Virus record (IMG/VR): IMGVR_UViG_3300010279_000462
Length of the DNA stretch: 64,000 bases
Reading direction: 5' to 3' (one strand)
Origin: a virus
Lineage: Duplodnaviria; Heunggongvirae; Uroviricota; Caudoviricetes
In this document: piece after piece, positions 42,519-63,781 of the stretch
Numbering within the stretch: position 1 is the stretch's first letter
Layout: each line of letters opens with the position of its first letter
Position numbers and translations under genes: made by a program
Notes under the pieces: model-generated
Seen by the model: only the letters and a program-made list of their open reading frames with translations
What the model was told of the DNA's origin: nothing
Database searches by the model: none

Positions 42519-42700
42519 CTCCTTTCTTCATCATCATTGTAGCACTTATCTGCAAAATCGTCAACCATAATATTGACCAATTTGCTGACAAATATATTGT
42601 ATGCTAAAAAGACGACTTTGATGCAAACGTCAATATATGGAGCCTGTCTGCCTTCGTGCAGATGGGCTTTTTTCATGCCAACAAGGAGGTGGTTATCCGC

Positions 42701-45700: not shown

Positions 45701-48655
45701 GGCTTCTTTGGCGGCATCTGGGATTCCATTACCGGCAAGACCAGCGATTCCACTTCTCAGATGAAGACCGACACCTCCAATGCGTGGTCGGGTGTGGAGG
45801 CAGAAGCACAGACCGCATGGTCTGGTGTCTCCACTTCCGTGTCGGCTGCCTGTTCTGGTATGGCGCAGTCGGTGACAAGCCAGATCGACAGCATCAAGGC
45901 ATCCATGTCTGCGGCATGGTCCGGAATCGCCTCGGAAACGACCGCAGCCTGGAACAATGTCAAGACCAGCCTTGCAACGGCATGGTCGGGCATCTCCTCC
46001 ACCATGACTGCCAGCCTGAATGGTGTAAAAGCAGCGGTCAGCAACGGCTGGACACAGCTTCGCAGCCTGACGGTTTCCAGCTGGTCCGGCATCCAGTCCA
46101 GCCTGACGGCGAGCTGGAATTCCATCAAGACGGCGACCACGACGGCAGTCAATACCGTGAAGACTTCGGTCACAACGGGGTGGACGGATCTGCGCGGCCT
46201 GACCACTTCCAGCTGGAGTTCCATCCAGAATGCGCTGAATACGAGCTGGAACTCCATCAAGAGCGCAACGACAGCATCGGTTAATGCGGTGAACACCTCG
46301 GTCACGACCGGGTGGACGAATCTGCGGAGCTTGACTGCTTCGAGCTGGAACTCTATACAGACTGCACTGAACACAAGCTGGAACAACATCCGGAGTGCGA
46401 CCACGAGTTCGGTCAATGCGGTGAATACCTCTGTCACGGCCGGATGGAACAATCTGCGCAGCATGACTGCCAGCAGTTGGTCGAGTATCCAGTCGGCACT
46501 CAGTTCCATCTGGAACAGCATTAAGTCTACGGCTTCTTCGGCGGTCAACGCTGTGAAATCCGCTGTGTCCTCTGGATGGAGCGGGGTGAAGTCCTCGACA
46601 AGCTCCACCTTCAGCAGTGTGCAGTCGGCAGTGTCAGGTGCAATGTCGAATCTGCGCTCTACGGTATCCTCCGGTGTGTCCAGCGTCAAGAGCAGTTTCA
46701 ACTCGCTGAGTTCCATTGCATCCTCGGCATACAGCTGGGGCGCAGATATCTGCTCTCAGATGGCAGCCGGTGTCCGGGCGGCAGCTGGCAGGGTCGTTCA
46801 GGCGGCGGAAAATGTGGCAAGCAAGGTCAGAAGCCTCTTGCACTTCTCTGTTCCTGACACCGGTCCTCTGTCCGATGCGGATGAGTATATGCCTGACTTC
46901 ATGAAGCTGCTGGCAAGCGGCATCAAGAAGAATCAGGACAAGGTCATCAAGGCAGTCAAGAAGTTGTCCAGCGGCATGAACACCAACCTGACGACCCCGG
47001 TCGGTGACATGAGCGATAAGGTCAAGTCGGTGGTTGGCGGCTTTGCCAGTACGATTTCCGGCAGCACCTATCGGGTCAGTTCTGCGGCAAGTGGGCTGGC
47101 AAGCGGCATCAAAAATGGTCTGTTGAACGGTCTATCGGATCTTCAGACGGAGTTCAAGGGTGTCTGGGACGGACTCGAAAATACCACGAAGGCCGCCATG
47201 GACAACATCAGCGATGAAGTCAAGCATGGAATGTCCGAGATGGCAAACTCCATGGGAGAGCTTGGTTCTCAGACCAGCTCCCTTGGCTCCCTGATCCGTA
47301 ACCTTGGCGACACCTTCAATAACGATTTCCTTTCTAACCTCGGCAGTGGCATCGGCAAGGTCGGCGATACCGTGAGCAATGTCATGGGTATCGTGGACAA
47401 GCTGGGGCAGATGAAGAACACGGTCAGCTCTTTGGGCGAGACCTTCAAGAATCTGACCGGCGCGCTTGGCACAGATTCGGGCGGCGGATTGTTGTCGAAA
47501 TTGGGGCAGCTTGTGTCGCAGCTCGGCAGCAGCAACAGCTCTGGCATCATCTCCAACTTCGGCAACCTCATCTCCGGACTGACCTCGAAGATGGGCGGTC
47601 TGGGACAGGGCATCTCCGGCGTTCTCTCGAAGCTGGGTAGCCTTGGTTCCAGCGGAAGCGGAATCCTGTCGAGTCTCGGCAGCGTTGCTTCCGGTGTGCT
47701 TTCCAAGCTCGGCGGTGTGGGCAGCAGTCTGTCGGGAATCCTTTCCGGAGTTGGCTCCTCGCTGGGCGGCATCGCGGCTTCTGCGGGTTCGGCGCTTACC
47801 GGGCTGTTCGGCTCGGTCGGAACAACGGTGTCCGGCTTGGCGGCAGGAGCCGGTTCCGCACTGGCCGGCATCGCTTCCTCAGCTGGCGGTTTTCTCGCTT
47901 CGGCTGGTACGGCGCTTGCTGGCGTGGCCGGCCCTGCGGGTATTGCTGTAGCGGCGGTCGCCGGTGTCGGACTTGGCGTGAAAGCCCTGTGGGATAACTG
48001 CGACAGCTTCCGGGACGGTGTGACGAATATCTGGAATGGCATCAAGAACACCTTTGCCAGCGGCGTTGCTGCCGTAAAGCAGGGCGTATCGAATGCGGCT
48101 TCCTTTGTCGGCAACATCGCTTCTTCCATCTGGGGCGGTGTCAAGAACGTGGCATCCTCGGCATGGAACTGGGGCAAGGACATCGTAAGCGGTATCGCTG
48201 GCGGCATCCAAAAGGGTGTCAGCTGGTTCGGCAACGCTGTCAGGAGTGTGGCGGACGGTATCCGTTCCTTCCTCCACTTCTCTGTCCCGGATGAAGGCCC
48301 TCTGGCAGATGCCGATACCTATATGCCGGACTTCATGCAGCTTATGGCAAAGGGAATTCAGGGCAATACCGGCAATGTGCTGGATTCTGTGAAAACTCTG
48401 GTCGGAAAAGTCCATGAAGGCATGGCGGATATCAGCACATTTCGTCTGCCGGAAGTGAATATTCCACAATTCAATGCGAATGGGTGGAATATTCCGCAGC
48501 CCGCGCTGGCTGGCGGTACGACCAGAACGACCAATCTGGGCGGTGTTCACATCACCGTGAATGGCTACAATGCCCGGAACGATGATGAGCTGGCACAGAT
48601 CGTGGCAGACAAGATCAATGACATGATTGATCAGGATGATTCAGTCTACAAGTAA
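42701..48655 (+). CDS. tail tape measure protein (1984 aa)
   Basis: RBS AAGGAGGTGG. N-terminal TMP domain, long low-complexity repeat core (WxGIKS repeats) and duplicated C-terminal modules. Confidence 0.85.
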   Translation: MASRIAGITVEIGGDTTKLSKALEGVNKSIKTTQSELKDVNKLLKLDPSNTEAVTQKQRMLKEAIEATKEKLTTLKTAAQQANEQLADGKITQEQYDALQREIVETEEQLKSLQEQAAVTNATLAKIDAVGDKLQTVGSKVEDTGKKFLPVTAAVTGLGTAAVKTAADFDTEMSKVAAISGATGDDFDQLRAKAREMGAKTKFSASEAASAMEYMAMAGWKTGDMLDGIEGIMNLAAASGEDLATTSDIVTDALTAFGLSASDSGHFADILAAASSNANTNVSMMGETFKYCAPIAGALGFSAEDTAEAIGLMANSGIKASQAGTSLRSIMNNLAGEVTFVGKNIGEVTIATSNADGSMRSLNDILADCRVAFSGLSESEKAANAEALVGKNAMSGFLALMNASQSDIDKLSGAIENCDGASESMATTMQDNLNGQLTILKSQLEELAISFGDLLMPTIRKIVSAVQAFVDKLNSMDDSTRETIIKVAALAAAIGPLLIVLGKTISTVGTALKGFSSLAKGIRLLSTHVGSASGLFGKLGAALGGISAPVMTVVAVIGVLVAAFVNLWNTNEEFRTAITNIWNGIVETVRGFCDQLTQRINDLGFDFKDIVEVLKAVWDGFCQVLAPVFEGAFQVVSTVLSTVLDTLIGLFDVFSNLFQGNWSGAWEAVKGIFSGIWEGIQSIFSTVLDTLKGVADVFLGWFGTDWNSVWESIKSFFEGIWTGISTFFSGVLTGIQTTASNIWTDISTFFTGVWTGIKTFFEGIWNGIVSFFTGKTSEMDENTTSTFNGISSFLGGILSGLQTVFSTVWEAISGVVGGVMDAISSVISTVMNLISGDWSSAWEGIKSTASTVWEDISSVVSTAWEGISSFVSGAVSTLGSGLSTAWEGIKTTADTAWEGLKTGISDVWSNLQTTVSTAVSTLGSNLSTAWDGIKSTASTAWDGIKSAITSVWDGIQSGVTSAVDTVATGLSSAWEGIQSTASTAWEGIKSGISSAWEGISGFFGGIWDSITGKTSDSTSQMKTDTSNAWSGVEAEAQTAWSGVSTSVSAACSGMAQSVTSQIDSIKASMSAAWSGIASETTAAWNNVKTSLATAWSGISSTMTASLNGVKAAVSNGWTQLRSLTVSSWSGIQSSLTASWNSIKTATTTAVNTVKTSVTTGWTDLRGLTTSSWSSIQNALNTSWNSIKSATTASVNAVNTSVTTGWTNLRSLTASSWNSIQTALNTSWNNIRSATTSSVNAVNTSVTAGWNNLRSMTASSWSSIQSALSSIWNSIKSTASSAVNAVKSAVSSGWSGVKSSTSSTFSSVQSAVSGAMSNLRSTVSSGVSSVKSSFNSLSSIASSAYSWGADICSQMAAGVRAAAGRVVQAAENVASKVRSLLHFSVPDTGPLSDADEYMPDFMKLLASGIKKNQDKVIKAVKKLSSGMNTNLTTPVGDMSDKVKSVVGGFASTISGSTYRVSSAASGLASGIKNGLLNGLSDLQTEFKGVWDGLENTTKAAMDNISDEVKHGMSEMANSMGELGSQTSSLGSLIRNLGDTFNNDFLSNLGSGIGKVGDTVSNVMGIVDKLGQMKNTVSSLGETFKNLTGALGTDSGGGLLSKLGQLVSQLGSSNSSGIISNFGNLISGLTSKMGGLGQGISGVLSKLGSLGSSGSGILSSLGSVASGVLSKLGGVGSSLSGILSGVGSSLGGIAASAGSALTGLFGSVGTTVSGLAAGAGSALAGIASSAGGFLASAGTALAGVAGPAGIAVAAVAGVGLGVKALWDNCDSFRDGVTNIWNGIKNTFASGVAAVKQGVSNAASFVGNIASSIWGGVKNVASSAWNWGKDIVSGIAGGIQKGVSWFGNAVRSVADGIRSFLHFSVPDEGPLADADTYMPDFMQLMAKGIQGNTGNVLDSVKTLVGKVHEGMADISTFRLPEVNIPQFNANGWNIPQPALAGGTTRTTNLGGVHITVNGYNARNDDELAQIVADKINDMIDQDDSVYK

Positions 48656-48672
48656 GAAATGAGGTGATGCGT

Positions 48673-49449
48673 ATGGGCTATCTGCCTGAACGGAAAACGG
48701 TATCGCAGTTTGATCTCAAGGGCAGGTTCGCACGACAGTATCTGTCCTTTGCGGGGAAGTCCAGCAAGGACTTCCTTTTATATTTGTCCGGACCCGGTGT
48801 GTATGACTCCCCGGCGGCAGATGTGGAAAGCACGGCGGTCCCCGGACGAAACGGTGACATCATCAGCGAAAACGCCAAGTCCGGCAGGCGGCGGTTTCAG
48901 AATGTGGATATCAAATATGAAGCGTTCTTTTTCAACGGTCTGCCCGCCAAGACTGCGGCGGTGAAGTCGTGGCTTTTGTCCCCGGTTGGGTATCAGAAAC
49001 TGCAGGACACCTACGACCCCTCATTCTTCCGTATGGCGGTCTGTACGGAAGCCATGGAGTTTGATGTAACGGCGCAGAAGGCTGCCAAGATGGACCTCGT
49101 GTTCAACTGCAAGCCCCAGCGTTGGAGTGTAGAAGGGCAGAGAACGGTACGGCTGGAAAGCCGCAGCAACCTCATGAATCCCTTTGCTTTCCCGGCACAG
49201 CCCATCTTCAAGGTCTATGGAGATTCGGGCGGTGTGCTGTATGTGGGAGACGAGTCCATTACCATCCACAGCATCAAGGACTATGTCCTGCTGGACTGTG
49301 AGACGCACAACGCCTACAACGCCAGCGGCTTCTGCAATGAAACCATCCTGTCAGATGATTTCCCGGAACTGCCGGCCGGCAAAACGCAGATCACATGGAC
49401 GGGCGGGATCACGGCTGTAGAGGTAACACCAAGATGGTGGACACTGTGA
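48673..49449 (+). CDS. distal tail protein (Dit)
   Basis: Position after the TMP. About 258 aa. RBS GAGGTG. Confidence 0.65.
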   Translation: MGYLPERKTVSQFDLKGRFARQYLSFAGKSSKDFLLYLSGPGVYDSPAADVESTAVPGRNGDIISENAKSGRRRFQNVDIKYEAFFFNGLPAKTAAVKSWLLSPVGYQKLQDTYDPSFFRMAVCTEAMEFDVTAQKAAKMDLVFNCKPQRWSVEGQRTVRLESRSNLMNPFAFPAQPIFKVYGDSGGVLYVGDESITIHSIKDYVLLDCETHNAYNASGFCNETILSDDFPELPAGKTQITWTGGITAVEVTPRWWTL

Positions 49450-49465: not shown

Positions 49466-51286
49466 ATGATCCCTTGTCTGTATGCATCCACAGAGACAAA
49501 ATTCGACAATAACGGCATCGGGAAGCTGGCGGACGCACAGTCCTGTGTGGTGACAGAAAAGCGCAACGGCAGCTTTGAACTGGAAATGGTCTGTCCGGCA
49601 GACGGCATCCATGCGGAGAGCTTGGAGGAGGGAAACATCATTCTCGCAAAACCCTCGGATACCGGCAGGACACAGCCGTTTCGCATCTATAAGATCGCAA
49701 CGCCCATCGATGGCAAGCTGGTGGTGAAGGCACGGCACATCTCCTATCAGCTTAACTTCATCACCGTCTCGCCCTTTGCCACGACTGGCTGCACCGGTGC
49801 GCTGGCAGGACTGGAAAATCATGCGGCGTCTGACTGCCCTTTTGCGGTCTGGACGGATATTTCCTCCAATGCAGCATTCCGGCTGTCCACGCCATCGTCC
49901 TTCCGAAACTGTCTCGGCGGTATCGATGGCTCTGTGCTGGACACCTTTGACGGAGAATATGAGTGGGATCGATACGAGGTCAAACTCCATCGCTGCCGGG
50001 GAGCTGACCACGGTGTGCATATCACCTATGGAAAGAACCTCACGGATTTCCGAATGGAGAAGAACATCGAGAATGTTATCACCGGTGTGCATCCATATTG
50101 GCAGAACTCTGAAACCGGCGAGGTGACAGAGCTGCCGGAAAAGGTCGTGTTGATGGAACAGCGGTCTGTGCCGTACCAGAAGTTCTCTGTGCTGGACTGC
50201 ACCGCTGGCTTTCAGGACAAGCCGACTGCGGAGATGCTTCGCAGCTATGCGCAGGAATATCTGAAGAACACCAGCCTGACCGAGCCGCAGGTCGATATCG
50301 ACATCGACTTCATCCAGCTCTGGAATACGCCGGATTATGCGGATGTGGTGGAAGCTGAACAGGTGAGCCTCTGTGATACCGTCCATGTGTTCATTTCTAA
50401 GCTGGGAATCGAGGTCAGTTCCAAGGTGACGGAGACCGAGTACGATGTCCTGCTGGAACGGTACAAGAGCATCACGCTGTCGAACTCGCTGGTCAGCAGC
50501 CGGAACTCCTCGCTGACTACGGCGTTGAGCAGCATCCGCAATACCGCCAACGAAGCCTACAATACCGCACTTCGTGTGGAAAACAGCATGGGCGAACAGA
50601 TCGGCGGTATCTCCGTGTCCATGGTTTATGATGGTACGCTGTTGGCCGGTCTGTTCGGTCTGCACTACCAGAATGTGACCGAGGTGAACGGAGATACCGT
50701 GCGGTATGCCTTCAATGCCGGAACGCTGGCAAAGTCCAGTTTCGCATGGAAGAACAGTCCGGCAGGATTCTTCATTTCCACAGATGGCGGTAAGACATGG
50801 GGCTATGGCTGGGAAAAGGATGATTCCCCGGTCAAGACCGCACTGCTCCTGGAAGATACCTTGCAGGAGTTGGACGAGAGATACAAGAAAGCGGCGGCTC
50901 TGACAGATGAGCTTCTGGCACAGCTGGATGAGCGGTACAAGACTGCATCCGCCTTGACCGAAGACCTGCTCAAGAAGCTGGATGAACGATACGGTGTGGC
51001 AGGAAAGCTGTCGGAATCCCTGATGGCTGAACTGGATGAACGCTATGCGCCGGCAGTTGTGGTAAGAAAGACCGCACCAACAGCACCAAAGGACAATGCA
51101 CTCTGGGTCGATATCTCCGAACTGCGGCTGAAGCTGTGGGATGGAGAAGCATGGCAGACGGTTGGCTATGAGCCGCCAGAGCCTGACCCGGATACCCCGA
51201 CAGAGGAAGGAGGCGAAGAAGATGGCAAGCAGGAAAGCGGCAGTACAGACGCAGGAGCAGACAGCGCAGGTGACACAGACGGCTAA
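49466..51286 (+). CDS. tail-associated lysin / tail endopeptidase-like protein (Tal)
   Basis: N-terminal siphovirus Tal fold (NGIGKLADAQS...). C-terminal 4x LDERYK coiled-coil repeat. Confidence 0.7.
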   Translation: MIPCLYASTETKFDNNGIGKLADAQSCVVTEKRNGSFELEMVCPADGIHAESLEEGNIILAKPSDTGRTQPFRIYKIATPIDGKLVVKARHISYQLNFITVSPFATTGCTGALAGLENHAASDCPFAVWTDISSNAAFRLSTPSSFRNCLGGIDGSVLDTFDGEYEWDRYEVKLHRCRGADHGVHITYGKNLTDFRMEKNIENVITGVHPYWQNSETGEVTELPEKVVLMEQRSVPYQKFSVLDCTAGFQDKPTAEMLRSYAQEYLKNTSLTEPQVDIDIDFIQLWNTPDYADVVEAEQVSLCDTVHVFISKLGIEVSSKVTETEYDVLLERYKSITLSNSLVSSRNSSLTTALSSIRNTANEAYNTALRVENSMGEQIGGISVSMVYDGTLLAGLFGLHYQNVTEVNGDTVRYAFNAGTLAKSSFAWKNSPAGFFISTDGGKTWGYGWEKDDSPVKTALLLEDTLQELDERYKKAAALTDELLAQLDERYKTASALTEDLLKKLDERYGVAGKLSESLMAELDERYAPAVVVRKTAPTAPKDNALWVDISELRLKLWDGEAWQTVGYEPPEPDPDTPTEEGGEEDGKQESGSTDAGADSAGDTDG

Positions 51287-51982: not shown

Positions 51983-54900
51983 ATGGGAGAGTTTGTCGGA
52001 AAACGAGTGGTTCCGGATCATGTTGGTATCTGGGATCAGAATAAGACCTATGAACCCCTGATGATCGTGCTGGACAATTCGACCGGCGACAGCTATATCA
52101 GCCGAAGGGCAGTGCCGACTGGCATTTCTCTGGCGGATGAGAGCTATTGGTCTCTGTGCGCCCACTACTCCGCACAGATGCGCAAGCTGGAACAGGACAT
52201 CAGTCTGGATGTCCAGCAGATGCACAGCGATGTGAGTGCTGCGAAGAATGCCATGAGCAAAGATCTGTCGGACACGAAAACCGCAATGAGCCGGGAACTG
52301 ACCGACACGCATACTGCCATGAGTCAGGAATTGTCGCAGACGGAACAGCGCGTGGAGAATAACCTCAAGCAGACCAGTGCCGAGCTGACGGGCAGGGTCG
52401 AACAGGCAAAATCCGACCTGAATACGGGTCGTCAGGAGTTGCAGGATGCTAAGACTACGCTGACCAAGCGCATGGATAGCATTGCCGGAAGCCGCACGAC
52501 CAATGCGGAGGTGCTGGACGCTCGTGTGGATGCAGAGGGTAAGACCCACACCAATCTTGGTGAGCATATCCGCAGCGGTTTTGAGCGCGTTTGGGGTGAC
52601 CAGCAGGAATCTGTGAATCATCTTTGCCGGATGGCGGCGGTAAGCGATGCGATGCGCACGGCGAACCTTGTCCATACGGTTGACACCGAGGCGCAGAATA
52701 CGTCTGGTGAAGTCAAGGCAAAAGCCGTGTCTTACGGACATGGTGACCGCGCGGGTGCTATCCTGAATGGTCAGCTGAAGGAAGGCGAGAATGGCGTGTC
52801 TGTTCTGCGCTTTACCGAGCCGATGTCGATCAAGGCTGGAACGCCGTATACCGTGTTCATCGATGAATCGACCCCGAAGATGGGCTACGGCGTTTTCTTC
52901 TATGAGGTCGATACCGGTGTCTGCCTGCAGGTGAATGGTGTGAACCGAGGTTTTACTCCGGCCAACAATGTCATTTCCACTGCGGTATTTGACAACGGCG
53001 GTATGTTCCGTGCTGGCGTTTATTCGACCGACTGTGAATTCGAGGATCACGAGATCCACCTGTATGTGGTGGAGGGCGAGTATACCCGGAAGGACTTCTT
53101 CGGTATGCCTGCTGCTGAAGATATCTCGAAGAACGCAGCCGAGATCGCATCCGTCCGGGATGAAGTGCGAAAGGACAACCTCATCATCATGCGGCAGGTC
53201 ATGGTGAATGATGAGGCCGGTGAGCCGCTCTTTACGGCGACCCCGGTTGGAACGCTGAATCTTGGCGCAACGGTGCTGAACGGAAAGTTGGGACCGACTG
53301 CCGGGACGTATATCACGCAGATTTCTGCCACGTTCCAGCTGGAGCAGGAGAAAAACTACACCCTGCTCGTTTTGGATGACCGCAAGGATATCGAATACTC
53401 TGTGTTCCTGCTGGATGTAGATGCGTGGAAGGATGTCATGGAAAACGGCAAGACCCGTGAATTCAATGTCATCCATAGCCCTTGCGGATTGATCCCCGCC
53501 CATCGCACGGGTCCGCATCAGCTCCGTTTGTGGGTCAAGACCGATACGGAGTTCAAGAACCGCGCGGTACAGGTCTATCTGGTAGAGGGCGAACACGAGG
53601 AGAATGAACTCCGCGCTTATCTCCCGGCCAAGGAAGCCGAAACTGCAGTGAGAGGTGTTTCAGAGAACATTGTCTCTGTCGGCCGGGTCAGTGATACTCT
53701 GCGCCGCAATAACCTGATCCGCACGGTCTCCCGAAAGGCTGTGGACTCCAGTAATGCGGTCCATGCCACGGCGGAAAGTCTGGGCGTATCTTCCGGCGCT
53801 ATCATCAACGGCAGCCTTGGGCCGAATGTAGGCATAAGTACTCTGCATTTTGGCGAGGACTTCTGGCTGGACAGCTCCAAGACCTACACCCTTTATGCTC
53901 GTGCCGGAGAAGATATGCCGGAATGTTCGGTCTACTTCTATGGAAACAGCAAGTCGGGATGTATGCAGGTGAGCGGTGTCAACAAGGGATTCAGTGTCCA
54001 TGCCATTGCACCGCAGACCTTCACTCCGGATGAAAGCTGCTATTATCGTCCGGGCGTGTACACCAGTCAGGATTTGGAGTTCGAGAACTGTGAGCTGCAT
54101 CTCTTTGTGCTGGAGGGCGTCTATACCTATGCGGATGTCCGTGGGCTTGTTGAGTTCAATGACCTAAACGACAGCAGCACTGCAATGTCCGCAGTGCGGG
54201 ACTTCATCCGGAAGAAAAATCTGCTCCGGACGACCAATTATTCGGATAGCAATGCTCAGACACAGGCAAAGATCCGGATAATCGCAGACAACGAGAGCGA
54301 CCAGTCTATGATTCGGATGGAAGGCAATATGGGCGGTGCGCTTGCACTGAACAGCATCCGCTGTACATCGCTTTTCCATCTGACGAAAGGAAGAACCTAC
54401 ACCCTGTTCGTGATTGCGGAGAAAGATTGCCCGATGCTCACTGCCTATGCCGGCGATGAGGTGACCTATGGCTCGGTACAGATCGGTGGTGTAACGGTTG
54501 CAGTCAACTCTAAGAACGATCCGGTGCATACCTTTACCGCTGACAAGGACTACGATTGCCGCCTGCGTATTGCCTGTGACACAGCCACGACCTTTACGGG
54601 ACAGAGAGCGTATTTCTATCTGGTAGAAGGCAGCTATACAGGACAGCAGATGCGCTCGTGGGCTGGGTATGATGAGCTGATGGCGTTGGAGTCTGCAACA
54701 AGTGAAATGACCCAAGCTCTGGCACAGAAGGAGGAAGCCCGCTGGAATTCTGTGCAGAACGGTTTGGAGAATGTTATGACAGTCTCGGACCGTGCGCGGA
54801 TGTACAACCTAGTGAAAACCATTGATTCCAGCGTGAAGAACAATGAGGGAAAAGTGGCTGCAACGGCAACTGCCTGCGGTATTCTCGACAATGCGGGTGT

Positions 54901-56947
54901 CGTTATCAACGGCACGATGTCCAGTGAGATGAACGCCAGCATCCTAAAGTTCTCCGAGCCGATGCATCTGGAAAAAGGCAAGACCTACACGGCGCATATC
55001 GTGGACCCTGACCCGACTGCACCGTACTCCATGTTCTTCTACAAGGTGGGTTCCAACGCCTGTTTGCAGCAGGATGGCGCGAATCGCGGTGTTTCGGCAA
55101 TCGGTGGCCGCTTTGAATTGGTGATCCCGGATACAACGGGAGATTATCAGATGGGCGTCTATTCCACCGGCGCACAGTTCGACAATCATCTGATCCATGC
55201 CTATCTGTATGAGGGCACGGATTGGAGTGCAGATGATTTCTATGCCTATCCCACCAGCACCCTGCTTGCAAGCTGCATTTCCGAGATGGCAGCAGTCAAG
55301 GACAGCGTTCGCAAGAAGAACCTTGTGCGGATGATGAGCGGCAAGGGATTCCGGGACGGTGCCGGTGTCTATCGGCTGAATGCAATCGGTATGCCCGACC
55401 CGGCGGGGCTTGTGCTGAATGGTGAGGTTGGTACAGCAACGACTGTGAGCTACACGAATATCAGCGAAGTGTTCCATCTGGAAGCAGGTCGGACCTACAC
55501 CATTCTGGTTCGGGATGACGATAAGACGATGGACTACAATGTGACGGTAGTTGATAAGACTACAGGCAACTCCATCCGGCAGGACGGAGCGGGGCTGGCG
55601 TTCCATGTTCAGAAGTCGCCTTTTGCGAACTTTGTCCCGGATGCCAGTCAGGATGTTCGTCTGCGCATCAACTTCCGTAAGGCGATGAGCTGTGAAGACC
55701 ATATCCTGCACGTTTATCTGGTCGAGGGTAAATACAGCCTGACGGATATGCTGGCGTTTGCACAGGAAAAAGAGGAAGAACCGGAAGAGGATACCGGCTT
55801 CCCTTATGAGAGCTATAACCTCCCGATCCTGAAATTGACCGGCTCCATGAAGGGCATCAGCAAGTCCAACAAAGTCAATCTGACCTACACCTACGGGGAA
55901 CTTTCTGGAAGCTGTACGCTGAAATGGCAGGGCGCATCCAGCATTGCCTACGACAAGAAGAACTTCACCATTACCTTCGGCGAGGCGCAGACCATCGTGG
56001 AGAGCTGGGGCGCACAGAAGAAGTACTGTCTGAAAGCGAATTATGTCGATTTCAGTCATTGCCGCAACATTGTGGCTGCTAAGCTCTGGGGTCAAGCCCT
56101 GCGCACCCGAACGAAGCGCAATGAAAAGCTGTATCCGCTGCCCAATGGTGGCGCTATTGATGGCTTCCCCATCATGCTGGTGATCAACGACGAGTATCAG
56201 GGCATCTATACCTTTAACATCCCGAAAGACAAGTGGATGTTTGGTATGACGGACGGTGCAAGGGAGTGTATCCTGACTGCTGAGACCCACGCCAAGGGAA
56301 CACAGTTTGCAGAGGAAGCCAAGGTCGATACGACAGACTTCGAGATGGAGTATGTGCCGGATGAAGCCAATACCCAGTGGGTCAAGGACAGCGTGAACAC
56401 CCTGATCCGCACGGTCATGAACTTTAGCGGAACCACGGCGGCAGAAGTGGACAGTGTGATTGGTCCTTATCTGGACATCGACAGCGCGGTGGACTATTTC
56501 ATCATCACCTGTATGTTTGCCCTGACGGACAACCTCGACAAGAACTATATCCTGCTCACTTTCGATGGCGTGAAATGGATGTTTTCCGAGTATGACCTGG
56601 ATACGGCATTCGGTAACTGCTGGAACGGCAAAACCTACTACAATCCGAGTACCATTGTGACCCTTAAGAGTTTTGCGAATACCCATAAGATGATGGGTAT
56701 CCTCTACAACTGCTATAAGGACAAGATCAAAGCCCGGTATGCCGCACTGCGCAAGAATGTTCTGAGCGAAGGCAATGTGCAGACGACCGTTTCCAACTTC
56801 CTCGTGGACATCCCGAAAGGGCTGCTGGATGAGGAAGTTGTTCTGTGGCCGAAGATTCCCGGCACGAACACAAACAATATGAGCCAGATTCTCAACTGGT
56901 ATCGCCTGCGCTGCATCGAGATGGACGCAGAGATCAACGCACTCTAA
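51983..56947 (+). CDS. tail fiber / receptor-binding protein 1 (1654 aa)
   Basis: The N-terminal ~190 aa are shared with fiber 2 (MGEFVG...YISR..VP, THTAMSQEL repeats). Five modules of about 230 aa each open with ..VR(K)KNL.R. Distinct C-terminal domain. Confidence 0.75.
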   Translation: MGEFVGKRVVPDHVGIWDQNKTYEPLMIVLDNSTGDSYISRRAVPTGISLADESYWSLCAHYSAQMRKLEQDISLDVQQMHSDVSAAKNAMSKDLSDTKTAMSRELTDTHTAMSQELSQTEQRVENNLKQTSAELTGRVEQAKSDLNTGRQELQDAKTTLTKRMDSIAGSRTTNAEVLDARVDAEGKTHTNLGEHIRSGFERVWGDQQESVNHLCRMAAVSDAMRTANLVHTVDTEAQNTSGEVKAKAVSYGHGDRAGAILNGQLKEGENGVSVLRFTEPMSIKAGTPYTVFIDESTPKMGYGVFFYEVDTGVCLQVNGVNRGFTPANNVISTAVFDNGGMFRAGVYSTDCEFEDHEIHLYVVEGEYTRKDFFGMPAAEDISKNAAEIASVRDEVRKDNLIIMRQVMVNDEAGEPLFTATPVGTLNLGATVLNGKLGPTAGTYITQISATFQLEQEKNYTLLVLDDRKDIEYSVFLLDVDAWKDVMENGKTREFNVIHSPCGLIPAHRTGPHQLRLWVKTDTEFKNRAVQVYLVEGEHEENELRAYLPAKEAETAVRGVSENIVSVGRVSDTLRRNNLIRTVSRKAVDSSNAVHATAESLGVSSGAIINGSLGPNVGISTLHFGEDFWLDSSKTYTLYARAGEDMPECSVYFYGNSKSGCMQVSGVNKGFSVHAIAPQTFTPDESCYYRPGVYTSQDLEFENCELHLFVLEGVYTYADVRGLVEFNDLNDSSTAMSAVRDFIRKKNLLRTTNYSDSNAQTQAKIRIIADNESDQSMIRMEGNMGGALALNSIRCTSLFHLTKGRTYTLFVIAEKDCPMLTAYAGDEVTYGSVQIGGVTVAVNSKNDPVHTFTADKDYDCRLRIACDTATTFTGQRAYFYLVEGSYTGQQMRSWAGYDELMALESATSEMTQALAQKEEARWNSVQNGLENVMTVSDRARMYNLVKTIDSSVKNNEGKVAATATACGILDNAGVVINGTMSSEMNASILKFSEPMHLEKGKTYTAHIVDPDPTAPYSMFFYKVGSNACLQQDGANRGVSAIGGRFELVIPDTTGDYQMGVYSTGAQFDNHLIHAYLYEGTDWSADDFYAYPTSTLLASCISEMAAVKDSVRKKNLVRMMSGKGFRDGAGVYRLNAIGMPDPAGLVLNGEVGTATTVSYTNISEVFHLEAGRTYTILVRDDDKTMDYNVTVVDKTTGNSIRQDGAGLAFHVQKSPFANFVPDASQDVRLRINFRKAMSCEDHILHVYLVEGKYSLTDMLAFAQEKEEEPEEDTGFPYESYNLPILKLTGSMKGISKSNKVNLTYTYGELSGSCTLKWQGASSIAYDKKNFTITFGEAQTIVESWGAQKKYCLKANYVDFSHCRNIVAAKLWGQALRTRTKRNEKLYPLPNGGAIDGFPIMLVINDEYQGIYTFNIPKDKWMFGMTDGARECILTAETHAKGTQFAEEAKVDTTDFEMEYVPDEANTQWVKDSVNTLIRTVMNFSGTTAAEVDSVIGPYLDIDSAVDYFIITCMFALTDNLDKNYILLTFDGVKWMFSEYDLDTAFGNCWNGKTYYNPSTIVTLKSFANTHKMMGILYNCYKDKIKARYAALRKNVLSEGNVQTTVSNFLVDIPKGLLDEEVVLWPKIPGTNTNNMSQILNWYRLRCIEMDAEINAL

Positions 56948-56960
56948 GGAGGTCAATTCT

Positions 56961-57086
56961 ATGAAGAAACACGTTAATATGACTAAATTTTTCGGGGGGG
57001 GGGTAGTCCTGACAGCTGATTCTCATCCTCCTCCTGCTCACTGGAAAGTCATAAGAAAGCCTAACAGCAAGCAGGAAGGAGAATGA
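56961..57086 (+). CDS. 41-codon leader ORF containing a G10 homopolymer
   Basis: Strong RBS TAAGGAGG 8 nt upstream. G10 at 56994-57003 encodes GGG. Stop lies 5 nt before the fiber-2 ATG. Confidence 0.4.
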   Translation: MKKHVNMTKFFGGGVVLTADSHPPPAHWKVIRKPNSKQEGE

Positions 57087-57090
57087 GATC

Positions 57091-59703
57091 ATGGGTGAAT
57101 TCGTAGGCGGCCGCATCGTGCCCAAGCACTGCGGCGTATGGAACAAGAACACAAAGTACGAAATGCTCAGCATCGTATTTCAGCCGGAAACGGGCAACAG
57201 CTATATCAGCCGAAAGAACGTCCCGGAGGGTACTGCTTTGAGCAGCGAGGAATACTGGGCGCTCTCTGCAGAGTATTCGGCACAGGTCCACCGGCTGGAA
57301 CAGGATGTTGAAGCGGATGTGGAGCAGATGCACACCGACCTTGCCGCAACCAAGGAAGCGATGAGCAAGGAACTCTCTGAAACGCATACTGCGATGAGCC
57401 AAGAGCTGACAGAGACCCACACCGCCATGAGTGAGGAGTTGTCTGAAACGGAGAATCGGCTGAATACCAGCCTTCAGCGGACCACGGACGCTCTGACTGG
57501 ACAGGTGAACCAGGCAAAGTCTGACCTGAACACGGGCCGTCAGGAGTTGCAGGAGGCGAAGACCACGCTGACCAAGCGTATGGACAGTATTGCTGGCGGC
57601 CGAACGACCAACGCTGAGATTCTGGATGCCCGTGTCGATAACCAGGGCGTAACGCACGACACAATTGGCGCGGCAATGCGCTCGGCAGAACAGACGCGCG
57701 GACTGTGGGATAGCTGGTTCTCTTCCATTGTGACGCAGCTTCTGGATGAGGCGACTGGGCGGGAAACGGAAGCATTGACTTTCGATTCTACAATCAAGAC
57801 CTTTATCAATCTGGATGGCACGGTGGGAACGCTGGCAAATGACAGTGACAGCGGTTGGCACACTTCCGAGATGATTCCGGTCGTTGCAGGTCATGTGTAT
57901 GTGGTGACTGCATCAAGCGGTTGGAGAAAATACTACTATGCTTTCTACGACAGCGATGAGAAGGTTCTTTCTGGTGAAATCGCGCCGGATAACAGCTCTG
58001 CCCGCATTGAGAATCGTGTTGTGATTGCGCCGGTTGGTGCCGTTACGATGCGCATCACATGGATTCAGAGCACCACCTTTATCGGAAAGGTCGAGGAAGT
58101 GACGCGGTTCCTCTTTGCCTCCAATGAACTGAACGGAAAGCCGGAGGAACGTGTGGCGGCTCTGGAAGGTGAAATGGACAGGGCACAGGCTGATCTAACT
58201 GCGGCGGCAACAGGAGAGCAGAACACGCTGGACAGTGCAGCGGTGGTCGAGGGTGAAGCCATTGAAATCACTTACACGGCAAACCGCTGCATCAACGAAA
58301 GAGCAGGTGAAATCAGTCCTCTGGCAACAGAGAACACTGCCTTCCGTGTCTCTGACCCTATTCCTGTGGTTCCGGGTGAGCTGTACGCTTTTACAGTGTC
58401 TGGTGGCTGGCACAAGTATCTGTATGCGTTCTATAATGCCGATGGAAAAGTTGTCGGCGGATTTCAGGAGCATCGTGATGCTGTTGGTACCTACTATGAT
58501 AGGATTTCACCGGTTCCGGCAACTGCGGCTACTGTGCGTATTGCGTGGATTGAAAACAGTCATTTCACCGGCGTGATCAAGAAGGTGAGTCGTATCAGCT
58601 ACCCTTCGGCAGAGCTTGTTGGCGTTGCCGCGGAAGAAGCTGCTGTTCGGGATAGCAAGATTGCCGGGCTGGAATCCTATCTGGCCACCAAGGTCGTTGA
58701 CGAAAACTACGAGTATGCCATTGGCGATAAGCTCAAGGTCACGGAGAATACTGGTATTGTCTTGAATCCGACGACTGGCGCCAAGGTCAAGGAGCCAACC
58801 GGTAACACGAACTACCGGGTCACGGAACCTATTTCTGTGGAGCCGTACACGCCGTACTGCATCAATGCAGCTGGAAGGGCTGGCTACGGACTGTATGCGT
58901 TCTATGATGCGGCTGGCAATCGTGTCGGCGGTGAAAACAATACCAGTGGAGCCGACCGAAAGATTGAGAACAAGACTGTGGTTGCGCCGGCAAGAGCCGC
59001 GACAGTTCGGATTGCCTGCATCCGTGGCGTTCAGGAGTGCTCTATTCAGAAAATGACGCGCGGCTATTTTATCGGTATGAAGCCGAAATGGGCGGGCCGC
59101 ACTTGGGTATGCCTGGGTGACAGCCTGACGGAGAACAACAGCCGAACCACAAAGCACTACTTCGACTATATTGCCGAAAAGACCGGCATCAGCGTAGTCA
59201 ATCTCGGTGTAAGCGGGACTGGTTATATGCGGCGTCAGGATATCAACAGAGCCTTCTACCAGCGGGTAAGTGATATCCCGGTGGATGCCGATGTGATCAC
59301 CATCTTTGGCAGCGGCAACGACCTGAGCCTGACACTGGGGACGGTTACAGATACCGGCACGGATACGCTTTGCGGCTGTATCAATGCGACTATTGATGCA
59401 ATCTACGAGCGCATCCCGTTGGCACGGCTTGGCATCGTAACGCCGACTCCGTGGGTTGGCAGTATGCCCTCTAAGACCACTTGTGCTATGGCAAAGTATT
59501 CGGATGCCATCGTTGAGATTTGCAAGCGGCGCAGTATTCCGTGTCTTGACCTCTACCGCGAATCCAATCTGCGCCCGGATGATGAGAATTTCCGCAAGCT
59601 GGCTTTCTCGAAGGATGACGGTAACGGTGTGCATCCGGACGAAAAAGGACACGAGATTATTGCGGCATCGTTCCAGAGTTTGCTGGAACGGCTCATTCTC
59701 TAA
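57091..59703 (+). CDS. tail fiber 2 with three CBM-like repeats and a C-terminal SGNH/GDSL hydrolase
   Basis: N-terminus paralogous to fiber 1. Three repeats of about 95 aa. C-terminal GDSLTE...GSGND...DGNGVHPDEKGH (SGNH catalytic motifs). Confidence 0.8.
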   Translation: MGEFVGGRIVPKHCGVWNKNTKYEMLSIVFQPETGNSYISRKNVPEGTALSSEEYWALSAEYSAQVHRLEQDVEADVEQMHTDLAATKEAMSKELSETHTAMSQELTETHTAMSEELSETENRLNTSLQRTTDALTGQVNQAKSDLNTGRQELQEAKTTLTKRMDSIAGGRTTNAEILDARVDNQGVTHDTIGAAMRSAEQTRGLWDSWFSSIVTQLLDEATGRETEALTFDSTIKTFINLDGTVGTLANDSDSGWHTSEMIPVVAGHVYVVTASSGWRKYYYAFYDSDEKVLSGEIAPDNSSARIENRVVIAPVGAVTMRITWIQSTTFIGKVEEVTRFLFASNELNGKPEERVAALEGEMDRAQADLTAAATGEQNTLDSAAVVEGEAIEITYTANRCINERAGEISPLATENTAFRVSDPIPVVPGELYAFTVSGGWHKYLYAFYNADGKVVGGFQEHRDAVGTYYDRISPVPATAATVRIAWIENSHFTGVIKKVSRISYPSAELVGVAAEEAAVRDSKIAGLESYLATKVVDENYEYAIGDKLKVTENTGIVLNPTTGAKVKEPTGNTNYRVTEPISVEPYTPYCINAAGRAGYGLYAFYDAAGNRVGGENNTSGADRKIENKTVVAPARAATVRIACIRGVQECSIQKMTRGYFIGMKPKWAGRTWVCLGDSLTENNSRTTKHYFDYIAEKTGISVVNLGVSGTGYMRRQDINRAFYQRVSDIPVDADVITIFGSGNDLSLTLGTVTDTGTDTLCGCINATIDAIYERIPLARLGIVTPTPWVGSMPSKTTCAMAKYSDAIVEICKRRSIPCLDLYRESNLRPDDENFRKLAFSKDDGNGVHPDEKGHEIIAASFQSLLERLIL

Positions 59704-62698: not shown

Positions 62699-62784
62699 AC
62701 ATTTTGTCGGTATTGCTTCGATCTCGGCATTCTGTCAGGCAGATAATTTGTCGGTATTATGCCGATTTATCTTTGCGACAGAAC

Positions 62785-62813
62785 TTGCTATTCGGGTCCA
62801 TATGCGGCAATAT
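62785..62813 (+). promoter_or_regulatory. promoter cassette family copy TTGCTA-N17-CAATAT
   Basis: ACTTGCTATTCGGG...GGCAATATAC resembles the 27084 copy. Precedes the serine recombinase. Confidence 0.45.
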
Positions 62814-62839
62814 ACGACTACCAAAAGGAGGACAACACA

Positions 62840-63781
62840 ATGGAAGTGATGGTTGATCGCAAGCGGGCGGCGGCTTATTGCCGAGTCAGTACGGGAATGG
62901 AATGTCAGGAAGGTTCGTATGAAACCCAAATCAAGTACTACAAGGACCTGATCTCTAACGACCCGGATGAGGAACTGGTAAAAATCTATGCAGATGAGGG
63001 AAGCGGACGGAGTACGCAACGCCGGCCTGAGTTCCAGCAGATGATGCAGGACTGTGAGGATGGCAAGATCGATGTCATCTACACCAAGTCCATCTCCCGA
63101 TTCTCCCGAAATATGCTTGATTGTGTGACCGCAGTGCGTCGGCTGAAAGAGCTGGGCATTGCGGTCATTTTTGAACGGGAAAACATCAACACAATGGACC
63201 GCCAGAACGAACTGTTCTTCCACATCATGGCGATTATCGCTGAGGAAGAATCCAAGAGCATCGGCGGAAATGTAAAGCTCGCCATTGACCACTGCCATGA
63301 GGAAGGCAAGCCGACCGGGCGCGTGACTTATGGGTATCGCCGGGTAAACAACAAAGGCGAGTGGCGCATTGAGGAATCGGAGGCACGGCGCGTCCGTTGT
63401 GCCTTTGACCTTGCCGCCAAGGGCATCGGCTACGATGCTATCCGGAAGGAACTGGACGCGATGGAAAAGGCGGAAGGAACAGGCGTTTCATGGTCCCAAA
63501 ACCGCAACCGTGTTCCGATGCTGTTGAAGCACATCGCCTACACGGGGGACTACATCACGGACACCTACTATACGGCATACGGCAAAAACGGCCACCGATA
63601 CAGCAAGCGGAATAACGGGGAACGCGCCCAGACCTATCTGGAAGGTCATCATGAACCCATTGTCAGCAAGGAGCAGTTCGAGCGTGTCCAGACCCTGATG
63701 AGCATGGGACTGCTTCACTCTGGCAGGAAGAAGTACACGAAGGAACAGCAGGAGCTTCTAAACGATTCCAGCTGGCAGTAA
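62840..63781 (+). CDS. serine recombinase (resolvase plus recombinase domains)
   Basis: AAYCRVSTG with catalytic Ser. SRFSRN. Recombinase domain YGYRRVN. RBS AAAGGAGGA. Confidence 0.8.
   Translation: MEVMVDRKRAAAYCRVSTGMECQEGSYETQIKYYKDLISNDPDEELVKIYADEGSGRSTQRRPEFQQMMQDCEDGKIDVIYTKSISRFSRNMLDCVTAVRRLKELGIAVIFERENINTMDRQNELFFHIMAIIAEEESKSIGGNVKLAIDHCHEEGKPTGRVTYGYRRVNNKGEWRIEESEARRVRCAFDLAAKGIGYDAIRKELDAMEKAEGTGVSWSQNRNRVPMLLKHIAYTGDYITDTYYTAYGKNGHRYSKRNNGERAQTYLEGHHEPIVSKEQFERVQTLMSMGLLHSGRKKYTKEQQELLNDSSWQ

What the first reader, a model, noticed from the sequence alone, without database searches (positions are those of the whole stretch)
56961..57090. G10 homopolymer inside a strongly initiated 41-codon leader ORF that terminates 5 nt before the second tail-fiber gene: candidate phase-variation switch
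A TAAGGAGG RBS drives the ORF MKKHVNMTKFFGGGVVLTADSHPPPAHWKVIRKPNSKQEGE*. Its Gly codons are a run of ten G (56994-57003). With 10 G the ORF ends at 57086, so terminating ribosomes are delivered to the fiber-2 ATG at 57091 (translational coupling). With 9 or 11 G the ORF stops about 60 nt earlier (…SPDS*), uncoupling it. Slipped-strand length variation here could toggle expression of the SGNH-hydrolase fiber and therefore host range. Such contingency tracts are rare in phage genomes.
Basis: seen in the sequence. Interest (0 to 1): 0.7.

Follow-up and report, generated by a model that had tools for sequence, protein, structure and literature searches.

The report
Variable poly-G switch gating a phage tail fiber
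A run of ten Gs in a tiny upstream reading frame, kept in all 54 related human-gut phage copies examined but varying from 7 to 16 Gs, most likely works as a slippage-driven on/off switch for translation of the phage's second tail fiber, which would let one phage lineage produce particles with different host-recognition equipment.

Summary
G10 lies at 56994-57003 inside a 41-codon ORF (56961-57086). The ORF has a strong SD and stops 5 nt before the fiber-2 ATG at 57091. It is the only homopolymer longer than 7 nt in the 64 kb.

All 54 distinct related cassettes keep an uninterrupted G tract at this position. Its length ranges from 7 to 16. Contigs that are 0-1 substitutions apart over 3.1 kb differ only at the tract.

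Two features were missed:
- A conserved hairpin of about 22 bp (-31 kcal/mol) pairs an anti-SD (CCUCCUCCU, which also encodes PPP in the leader) with the fiber-2 SD and start codon.
- In 35 of 36 sequence variants, two reading frames stop within 18 nt after the tract. The third frame reads through the hairpin and ends between -32 and +16 of the fiber ATG.

About half of the assemblies are in the read-through frame.

The first fiber never has the cassette. Second and third fibers always do.

The closest known mechanism is the repeat-containing leader peptide of Streptococcus gallolyticus pil1. The closest known biology is the polyG tracts of Campylobacter phages. I rate this a new variant of a known kind. 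The effect on expression is inferred, not shown.

The parts
51983..56947 (+). Fiber-1 (1654 aa, CotH C-terminal domain). It is the first fiber of the module and has no leader cassette.
   Evidence: In all relatives, first fibers start ATGGGAGAGTTT about 20 nt after the preceding gene, with no G tract.
56946..56952 (+). Shine-Dalgarno sequence (AAGGAGG) of the leader ORF, overlapping the fiber-1 stop codon.
   Evidence: SD-like motifs lie 6-9 nt before the leader ATG in five different upstream contexts.
56961..57086 (+). Leader ORF of 41 codons, in the read-through ('long') frame in this window.
   Evidence: Gene callers have called long-form homologues on hundreds of contigs.
56994..57003 (+). 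G10 homopolymer, the hypervariable tract.
   Evidence: It is G7-G16 in 54 related cassettes and the only internal indel between near-identical contigs.
57004..57006 (+). TAG stop used when the tract is one G shorter (G9, G12 and so on).
   Evidence: The equivalent early stop (TAC TCC TGA/TAA) is conserved in relatives.
57017..57019 (+). TGA stop used when the tract is one G longer (G11, G8 and so on). It also forms the base of the hairpin's 5' arm.
57017..57038 (+). 5' arm of the hairpin. It contains the anti-SD CCUCCUCCU (57027-57035), which is also the Pro-Pro-Pro codons of the long leader frame.
57070..57091 (+). 3' arm of the hairpin. It contains the fiber-2 SD (AAGGAG, 57076-57081), the leader stop (57084-57086) and the A of the fiber-2 start codon.
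   Evidence: The opening cost is 13.9 kcal/mol, against 6.1 for the fiber-1 start region.
57091..59703 (+). Fiber-2 (870 aa). Its N-terminal 199 aa are 64% identical to fiber-1, and it has a C-terminal GDSL/SGNH esterase domain. This is the gated gene.

Best explanation
The region 56945-57093 is a conserved regulatory cassette. I propose it makes translation of the second tail-fiber gene depend on the length of a hypermutable poly-G tract.

**Shown from sequence and comparison**
- The tract sits in a short leader ORF that has its own SD.
- The SD and start codon of fiber-2 are locked in a hairpin of about 22 bp. Its 5' arm (anti-SD CCUCCUCCU) lies inside the leader ORF.
- In one tract-length class, which includes G10 in this window, the leader frame runs through the 5' arm and ends within a few nucleotides of the fiber-2 AUG.
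- In the other two classes the frame stops 3-18 nt after the tract, before or at the base of the hairpin.
- Tract length differs between otherwise identical phages.

**Inferred**
- Slipped-strand mispairing during prophage or lytic replication changes the tract by one G or more.
- In the read-through frame, ribosomes melt the hairpin and may pause on Pro-Pro-Pro. They terminate next to the fiber-2 start and reinitiate, or allow a new 30S subunit to bind. Fiber-2 is then ON.
- In the early-stop frames the hairpin stays closed and fiber-2 is OFF or low. The +1 frame, whose stop sits at the hairpin base, may be intermediate.
- Both fibers share an N-terminal anchor domain, so the switch would change which distal enzymes (CotH-type or SGNH esterase) decorate the virion.
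- That would give a bet-hedging mix of adsorption specificities.

Phages with three fibers carry two independent cassettes, which would allow combinatorial states.
For: **The tract**
- It is unique in the window and is the only G/C run of 6 or more in the related 14-kb loci.
- It is present in all 54 distinct cassettes, at G7-G16 with a mode of 9-10. The search patterns used did not include the tract.
- Leaders identical outside the tract differ in length.
- Contig pairs with 0-1 substitutions over 3.1 kb have the tract as their only internal indel: L006/L007, L006/L027 and L008/L045. L006/L044 shows the same over 2.4 kb.
- Long-form peptides occur as GG, GGG and GGGG variants of the same sequence.

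**The frame trap**
- In 35 of 36 distinct post-tract sequences, two frames stop within 18 nt. The third is open for at least 55 nt and ends between -32 and +16 of the fiber ATG.
- This holds in variants where an extra base has changed which frame is the open one (L030, L036, L040, L050).

**The hairpin**
- It appears in the RNAalifold consensus.
- 98% of cells pair, against about 42% when the partner columns are slid, with 2 compensatory pairs.
- Its energy is -31 to -36 kcal/mol, with z-scores of -3.0 to -3.7.
- Opening the fiber-2 start region costs 13.9 kcal/mol, against 6.1 for fiber-1 and 6.8 for the leader. The cost falls to 5.1 when the 5' arm is ribosome-covered.

**Other support**
- A leader SD is present in five unrelated upstream contexts.
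- Both states are common: 26 long and 28 short.
- The cassette precedes only second and third fibers, never the first.
- There is no promoter or intrinsic terminator in the region.
- A mechanistic precedent exists. In S. gallolyticus pil1, GCAGA repeats set the leader-peptide length and so control a downstream stem-loop (PMC3894217).
Against: - There are no read-level data, so within-population switching has not been seen.
- There are no expression data, so neither the dependence of fiber-2 on the leader nor the polarity (long frame = ON) has been tested.
- Covariation support for the hairpin is modest: 2 compensatory pairs among closely related sequences. Part of the 3' arm (SD to start codon) was fixed by my search pattern.
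- Conservation of the leader peptide (FHPPPAC) cannot be separated from conservation of the RNA arm that encodes it.
- A ribosome terminating at the +1-frame stop would also open the base of the hairpin, so the switch may not be binary.
- Some tract lengths come from low-coverage or error-prone assemblies. L014 and L024 show other homopolymer indels.
- RNA polymerase slippage on G10 could blur the genotype-to-frame relation.
Confidence: 0.6

Rival explanations
1. The tract acts without leader translation. Its length would modulate fiber-2 through RNA or DNA properties, such as alternative pairing of the G run with the C-rich anti-SD, a G-quadruplex in long tracts, RNA polymerase pausing or slippage, or Rho access. 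The small ORF would be incidental.
For: - The G run is complementary to CCUCCUCCU in principle.
- Tract lengths of all three frame classes occur, which is also what a frame-independent element would show.
- Peptide conservation can be explained by the RNA arm alone.
Against: - In minimum-free-energy and centroid folds the anti-SD pairs with the SD arm, not with the G run.
- The leader ATG plus an SD is kept in five different upstream contexts.
- The layout of two early stops and one open frame is kept in 35 of 36 variants, even after frame-shifting indels. A non-translated element has no need for this.
Confidence: 0.15
2. The tract has no regulatory role. It is a mutation-prone and assembly-error-prone homopolymer in an intergenic spacer, and fiber-2 is translated constitutively from its own SD.
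For: - Fiber-2 has a good SD of its own (AAGGAG, 8-9 nt before the ATG).
- Some contigs have low coverage or show other homopolymer errors (L014, L024, L025).
- The three assemblies of this exact phage all show G10.
Against: - A neutral G10 should decay by point interruption. Instead all 54 cassettes keep an uninterrupted run of 7 or more Gs, while the flanking leader sequence varies (mean column identity 81%).
- The SD is buried in a conserved hairpin of about -31 kcal/mol.
- The frame trap is conserved.
- The tract is the only internal indel between contigs from independent samples that are otherwise identical.
Confidence: 0.12
3. The long leader peptide is itself the functional product, for example a small assembly or regulatory peptide. 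The tract would toggle the peptide, with fiber-2 affected only secondarily. A related variant is that read-through translation represses fiber-2 by occluding its start site, which reverses the polarity.
For: - The long-form peptide family is recurrent, with invariant D20, H22 and PPP.
- In the L004-type cassette the long frame overlaps the first five codons of the fiber gene.
Against: - The C-terminal half of the peptide is replaced wholesale in variants with one extra C (…PPPCLRKRRW… instead of …PPPACKKDVG…) and is truncated in others. The amino-acid sequence after PPP is therefore not conserved.
- The peptide matches no PHROG family.
- Upstream ORFs that terminate within a few nucleotides of a structured start site normally activate the downstream gene. 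This rests on general knowledge of translational coupling.
Confidence: 0.08

Closest known systems
Streptococcus gallolyticus pil1 (and pil3) phase variation by a repeat-containing leader peptide with an attenuation-like mechanism (Danne et al. 2014, PMC3894217)
   Same: - A slippage-prone repeat inside a short leader ORF sets how far ribosomes travel.
- Only the long leader reaches and destabilises a downstream stem-loop that otherwise blocks expression of the surface-structure genes.
- The host is a Firmicute.
- The outcome is a stochastically heterogeneous population.
   Different: - The repeat there is a GCAGA pentanucleotide. Here it is a G homopolymer.
- The stem-loop there is an intrinsic transcription terminator. 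Here it has no U tract and instead buries the SD and start codon, so control is translational, with termination next to the downstream AUG.
- That system is a bacterial pilus operon. This one is a phage tail-fiber gene.
Hypermutable polyG tracts in Campylobacter (Fletchervirus) phage genes, including receptor-binding proteins (Sorensen et al. 2021, Cell Rep 35:109214, as cited in PMC10877375 and PMC12823448); contingency loci in T2/T4 (bioRxiv 10.1101/2025.10.21.683753)
   Same: A phage-encoded homopolymer whose length varies, generating subpopulations that differ in host-interaction proteins as a bet-hedging strategy.
   Different: - Those tracts lie inside the coding sequence of the affected gene and act by truncating it.
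- Here the tract lies in a separate leader ORF and would act through a hairpin and translational coupling, leaving the fiber ORF intact.
- The hosts also differ: temperate siphovirus-type phages of gut Oscillospiraceae, against lytic Campylobacter and coliphages.
Translational coupling by unfolding of an SD-sequestering structure or by termination-reinitiation (for example the infC-rpmI-rplT operon and RNA-phage coat/replicase genes), and leader-peptide attenuation of ermC (cited from my own knowledge)
   Same: The downstream start region is closed by pairing with a sequence that lies inside the upstream ORF. Ribosomes on that sequence open it. The upstream stop lies within a few nucleotides of the downstream AUG.
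   Different: In the classical cases the upstream ORF is always read, or stalling is drug-induced. Here a hypermutable tract would decide whether the ribosome arrives at all.
Tail-fiber switching by DNA inversion (Mu Gin/G segment, P1 Cin) and by diversity-generating retroelements (cited from my own knowledge and PMC12823448)
   Same: A programmed, heritable but reversible change in the phage's receptor-binding equipment.
   Different: There is no invertible segment, recombinase site or reverse transcriptase involved at this locus. The change is the presence or absence of an extra fiber, not a swap or mutagenesis of the fiber tip.

Membership tests
Simple-sequence-repeat contingency locus (phase variation by slipped-strand mispairing) | Homopolymer long enough to slip (G/C of about 7 or more) | tested here: met
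   G10 in the window and G7-G16 in relatives.
Simple-sequence-repeat contingency locus (phase variation by slipped-strand mispairing) | Repeat-number polymorphism between very closely related genomes, concentrated at the tract | tested here: met
   Identical leaders carry different G numbers. The tract is the only internal indel between contigs 0-1 substitutions apart.
Simple-sequence-repeat contingency locus (phase variation by slipped-strand mispairing) | High-frequency, reversible switching within one population | not testable with these tools
   No reads were available. The three assemblies of this exact phage all show G10.
Simple-sequence-repeat contingency locus (phase variation by slipped-strand mispairing) | Repeat number changes the expression of a gene | not testable with these tools
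   Only inferred from the frame logic and the hairpin.
pil1-type leader-peptide phase variation (S. gallolyticus) | Repeat inside a leader ORF changes the leader length | tested here: met
pil1-type leader-peptide phase variation (S. gallolyticus) | Only the long leader overlaps a downstream inhibitory stem-loop | tested here: met
   The early stops end 3-18 nt after the tract. The 5' arm begins at the second of these stops, and the long frame crosses it.
pil1-type leader-peptide phase variation (S. gallolyticus) | The stem-loop is an intrinsic transcription terminator | tested here: not met
   The scan found no terminator. The 3' arm is followed by AUGGGUGAAUUC rather than a U tract, and the arm contains the SD and the start codon.
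Translational coupling through a structured start region | Downstream SD and AUG are paired with a sequence inside the upstream ORF | tested here: met
   The opening cost is 13.9 kcal/mol free and 5.1 kcal/mol with the 5' arm covered. This is computational evidence only.
Translational coupling through a structured start region | Upstream stop lies close to the downstream start | tested here: met
   At -4 in 26 of 36 variants, and between -32 and +16 in all.
Translational coupling through a structured start region | Downstream translation depends on upstream translation | not testable with these tools
   Needs reporter constructs.
Campylobacter-phage type polyG tracts | Tract lies inside the coding sequence of the structural gene it controls | tested here: not met
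   The tract is 87 nt upstream of the fiber ATG, in a separate 41-codon ORF.
Any curated RNA family (Rfam 15) | Match to a covariance model | tested here: not met
   Only chance miRNA-hairpin matches far below the gathering scores.

The most novel reading that the evidence does not exclude
A widespread lineage of temperate phages of human-gut Oscillospiraceae (Lawsonibacter and relatives) uses a portable cassette of about 145 nt to switch each accessory tail fiber on or off independently. The cassette consists of an SD, a leader ORF with a poly-G tract, a two-frame stop trap and an SD-sequestering hairpin. The first fiber stays constitutive. Phages with three fibers would then have four or more virion types from one genome. 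This would be the first translational, leader-ORF-based contingency switch described in a phage, and the translational counterpart of the pil1 attenuation switch.
Probability: 0.5. Interest if true: 0.8.

Novelty: new variant of a known kind. Interest (0 to 1): 0.72.

Why it matters
Host range is the central variable of phage ecology and phage therapy. For gut Clostridia phages almost nothing is known about how it is regulated.

If confirmed, the cassette would show three things:
- Temperate gut phages hedge their bets on receptor-modifying fibers through a simple mutational switch.
- The switch works at the level of translation initiation without damaging the fiber gene.
- It is modular enough to be placed in front of successive fibers.

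It also gives a practical warning. Tract length, and therefore the predicted phenotype, differs between assemblies of the same phage. The 41-codon ORF is annotated only as 'hypothetical protein', or not at all.

The cassette is compact enough (about 145 nt) to be tested directly with reporters. It could be reused as a stochastic switch in Firmicutes.

Tried and rejected
- BLASTN of 55500-58500 against 50,697 GenBank phage records gave no match, so there is no annotated relative.
- An exact leader pattern from the window found nothing in IMG/VR. Relatives differ too much at the DNA level and were found through the fiber protein instead.
- Exact look-up of the window's 41-aa peptide found it not on record. 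The peptide has no PHROG match.
- I looked for a promoter whose spacer would contain the G tract, as in fim/opc-type phase variation. There is no sigma-70-like site on the + strand. TAGTCC/TACTCC after the tract lacks the invariant final T of a -10 box, so I rejected this.
- I looked for an intrinsic terminator or antiterminator. None was found and there is no U tract after the hairpin, so I rejected this.
- Rfam gave only sub-threshold chance hairpin matches.
- I considered the G tract acting as an anti-anti-SD that pairs with CCUCCUCCU. The minimum-free-energy and centroid folds do not favour this, so I kept it only as a minor rival.
- The genome-contig scan returned only one species representative, a Lawsonibacter asaccharolyticus MAG. 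Host assignment therefore rests on a single MAG.
- The fifth sequence folded (L050) used wrong coordinates and should be ignored.
- The excess of long-frame states over the 1/3 expected at random (26 of 54) is suggestive only, because the contigs are not independent.

Full report
**1. The observation**

Reading 56700-57300 confirms every sequence statement:
- Fiber-1 ends with TAA at 56945-56947.
- TAAGGAGG (56945-56952) lies 8 nt before the ATG at 56961.
- The ORF 56961-57086 encodes MKKHVNMTKFFGGGVVLTADSHPPPAHWKVIRKPNSKQEGE.
- Ten Gs occupy 56994-57003.
- The leader stop TGA is at 57084-57086, and the fiber-2 ATG is at 57091.

One detail needs correcting. G11 gives ...GGGGSPDS* (the TGA at 57017-57019 in the G10 numbering). 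G9 stops at once at TAG 57004-57006.

The tract is a clear outlier. In the 64 kb no other homopolymer exceeds 7 nt, and the next-longest G run is 5.

**2. Context**

The window carries a siphovirus-type tail and lysis module:
- tape measure protein, 42656-48655
- Dit, 48664-49449
- Tal, 49466-51286
- a small protein, to 51965
- fiber-1, 51983-56947 (CotH C-terminus)
- fiber-2, 57091-59703 (GDSL/SGNH C-terminus)
- holin, a LysM protein and an endolysin
- serine recombinase

The two fibers share their first 199 residues at 64% identity and then diverge completely. They have the same anchor and different distal domains.

There is no GenBank phage relative. The one species-level genome hit is a Lawsonibacter asaccharolyticus MAG. 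The metagenome hits whose record names state a source are from human gut.

**3. Relatives: is the tract conserved and variable?**

I retrieved relatives in five ways. None of them specified the G tract:
- the fiber-2 protein in IMG/VR
- the fiber SD and start DNA motif in metagenomes and in genomes
- an alignment of the shared N-terminal domain
- the exact fiber protein
- leader-peptide homologues

All 54 distinct cassettes have an uninterrupted G run at the same place, about 87 nt before the fiber ATG. The lengths are 7 (4 cassettes), 8 (4), 9 (16), 10 (21), 11 (4), 12 (1), 13 (2), 15 (1) and 16 (1).

Leaders identical outside the tract differ in length:
- the L004 type has G9 three times and G10 four times
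- the L006 type has G7, G8 (twice), G9 and G10 (three times)
- L003 and L013 have G15 and G13
- L008 and L045 have G11 and G10

Contigs from independent samples that are 0-1 substitutions apart over 3.1 kb have the tract as their only internal indel. This holds for L006 against L007 and L027, and for L008 against L045. L006 against L044 shows the same over 2.4 kb.

The protein database independently holds the same leader peptide with GG, GGG or GGGG.

Two contigs (L014, L024) show other homopolymer indels, and L025 looks artefactual, so individual lengths should be treated with care. The overall pattern does not depend on them.

The three assemblies of this exact phage all have G10.

**4. Anatomy of the cassette**

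(a) *A leader ORF with an SD.* Five unrelated upstream contexts, following different first fibers, all provide an SD-like motif 6-9 nt before the leader ATG.

(b) *A frame trap.* In 35 of 36 distinct post-tract sequences, two frames stop within 18 nt of the tract. The third stays open for at least 55 nt and ends between -32 and +16 of the fiber ATG. It ends at -4, as in the window, in 26 of the 36. The rule survives single-base insertions that change which frame is the open one (L030, L036, L040, L050).

(c) *A hairpin.*
- RNAalifold predicts a long helix that pairs 57017-57038 with 57070-57091.
- The 5' arm contains CCUCCUCCU. The 3' arm contains the fiber-2 SD (GGAG 57078-57081), the leader stop and the A of the start codon.
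- On 30 distinct sequences, 98% of cells pair, against about 42% when partners are slid. Two pairs show compensatory changes.
- The hairpin alone folds at -31 to -36 kcal/mol, with z-scores of -3.0 to -3.7.
- Caveat: the SD-to-start part of the 3' arm was fixed by the search pattern for many loci, and the sequences are closely related, so covariation is limited.

(d) *Energetics.* Opening the fiber-2 start region costs 13.9 kcal/mol, against 6.1 for fiber-1 and 6.8 for the leader ORF. The cost falls to 5.1 when a ribosome covers the 5' arm. It stays high (21.7) for a ribosome at the -1-frame stop. It falls to 5.3 for a ribosome at the +1-frame stop, which sits at the base of the hairpin.

(e) *No other signals.* There is no promoter or intrinsic terminator and no Rfam family.

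**5. Distribution of states and of the cassette**

Of the 54 cassettes, 26 are in the read-through frame and 28 in an early-stop frame. The same leader type occurs in both states in different samples.

The cassette is never found before the first fiber, which follows the preceding gene after about 20 nt. It is always found before fibers that start ATGGGTGAATTC.

One contig (UMFP01057437.1, L034 plus L036) has three fibers of 1080, 872 and 664 aa, all with GDSL motifs. It has two cassettes, one in the short frame and one in the long frame.

The commonest long-form peptide is called as a hypothetical protein on hundreds of contigs.

**6. Most likely mechanism**

The following points are shown: the tract is hypervariable, the leader has translation signals, tract length decides whether the frame crosses the hairpin arm, and the hairpin buries the fiber-2 start region.

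The following points are inferred:
- Slippage toggles the frame.
- Read-through ribosomes melt the hairpin. They may pause on the Pro-Pro-Pro encoded by the anti-SD.
- They terminate beside the fiber AUG, so fiber-2 is translated by reinitiation or by new 30S entry.
- Early-stop ribosomes leave the hairpin closed.
- The +1 frame may give an intermediate level.
- Because the fibers share an anchor domain, the result would be virions with or without the SGNH-esterase fiber.

I put 0.6 on this mechanism as a whole and about 0.9 on the tract being a genuinely hypermutable, selected element.

The rivals are:
- length-dependent RNA or DNA effects without leader translation (0.15)
- a neutral, error-prone homopolymer with constitutive fiber-2 (0.12)
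- a functional peptide, or reversed polarity (0.08)

**7. Comparison with what is known**

The closest mechanism is S. gallolyticus pil1. There, GCAGA repeats set the leader-peptide length, and long leaders destabilise a downstream terminator (PMC3894217). Here the stem-loop is not a terminator but an SD trap, and the repeat is a homopolymer.

The closest biology is the hypermutable polyG tracts of Campylobacter phages (Sorensen 2021, as cited in PMC10877375 and PMC12823448) and the contingency loci reported in T2/T4 (10.1101/2025.10.21.683753). Those tracts lie inside the affected coding sequences.

Full-text searches found nothing describing this cassette, or any prophage study in Lawsonibacter.

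I therefore rate it a new variant of a known kind.

**8. Verdict**

The expression effect is untested. My interest score is 0.72.

Noticed in passing
window 51983-52579 and 57091-57687: Fiber-1 and fiber-2 share their N-terminal 199 aa at 64% identity and then diverge into CotH and GDSL/SGNH distal parts. This suggests that they dock to the same site on the tail tip.
   Followed up: partly
L034 + L036 (contiguous pieces of UMFP01057437.1): This phage has three fibers (1080, 872 and 664 aa, all with GDSL motifs) and two poly-G leader cassettes. One is in the early-stop frame and one in the read-through frame, so combinatorial states look possible.
   Followed up: partly
L064:7384-7620 and L078:4131-4367; L069:7389-7802 and L072:7390-7803: The leader-gated fiber carries a single in-frame stop at a conserved Gln codon. 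In L064 and L078 it is DVE*MH (TAG). In L069 and L072 it is LTG*VTT. The reading frame is intact downstream. These could be nonsense knock-outs of a dispensable fiber, or a stop codon read as Gln.
   Followed up: no
A2 columns 96-103 (window 57027-57035); L004-type, L033, L034: The C-rich run in the hairpin's 5' arm also varies in length: CCTCCCCCT, CCTCCTCCCT, C6 in L033 and C7 in L034. This moves the end of the read-through frame to +16, -32 or -24. It may be a second, weaker slippage site.
   Followed up: no
L025 (ERZ833782 contig, coverage 2.9x): A run of about 20 A lies directly next to G16 in the leader. This is probably an assembly artefact of a low-coverage contig.
   Followed up: no
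window 62759-63781; L001 11750-14613: Three consecutive large serine recombinase genes (Resolvase + Recombinase domains) lie at the end of the prophage, after the lysis genes.
   Followed up: no
A2 columns 17-22 with 170-175 (window 56961-56966 with 57099-57104): RNAalifold pairs the leader start codon region (AUGAAU) with codons 3-5 of the fiber gene (AUUCGU). There is no covariation, so it may be chance.
   Followed up: no
window 56961-57086 and homologues P0001-P0078: Gene callers predict the long-form leader ORF on hundreds of metagenomic contigs as an unnamed or hypothetical protein. P0001 alone is on 299 contigs and in 571 index blocks. The lineage is therefore common in human gut samples.
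   Followed up: partly
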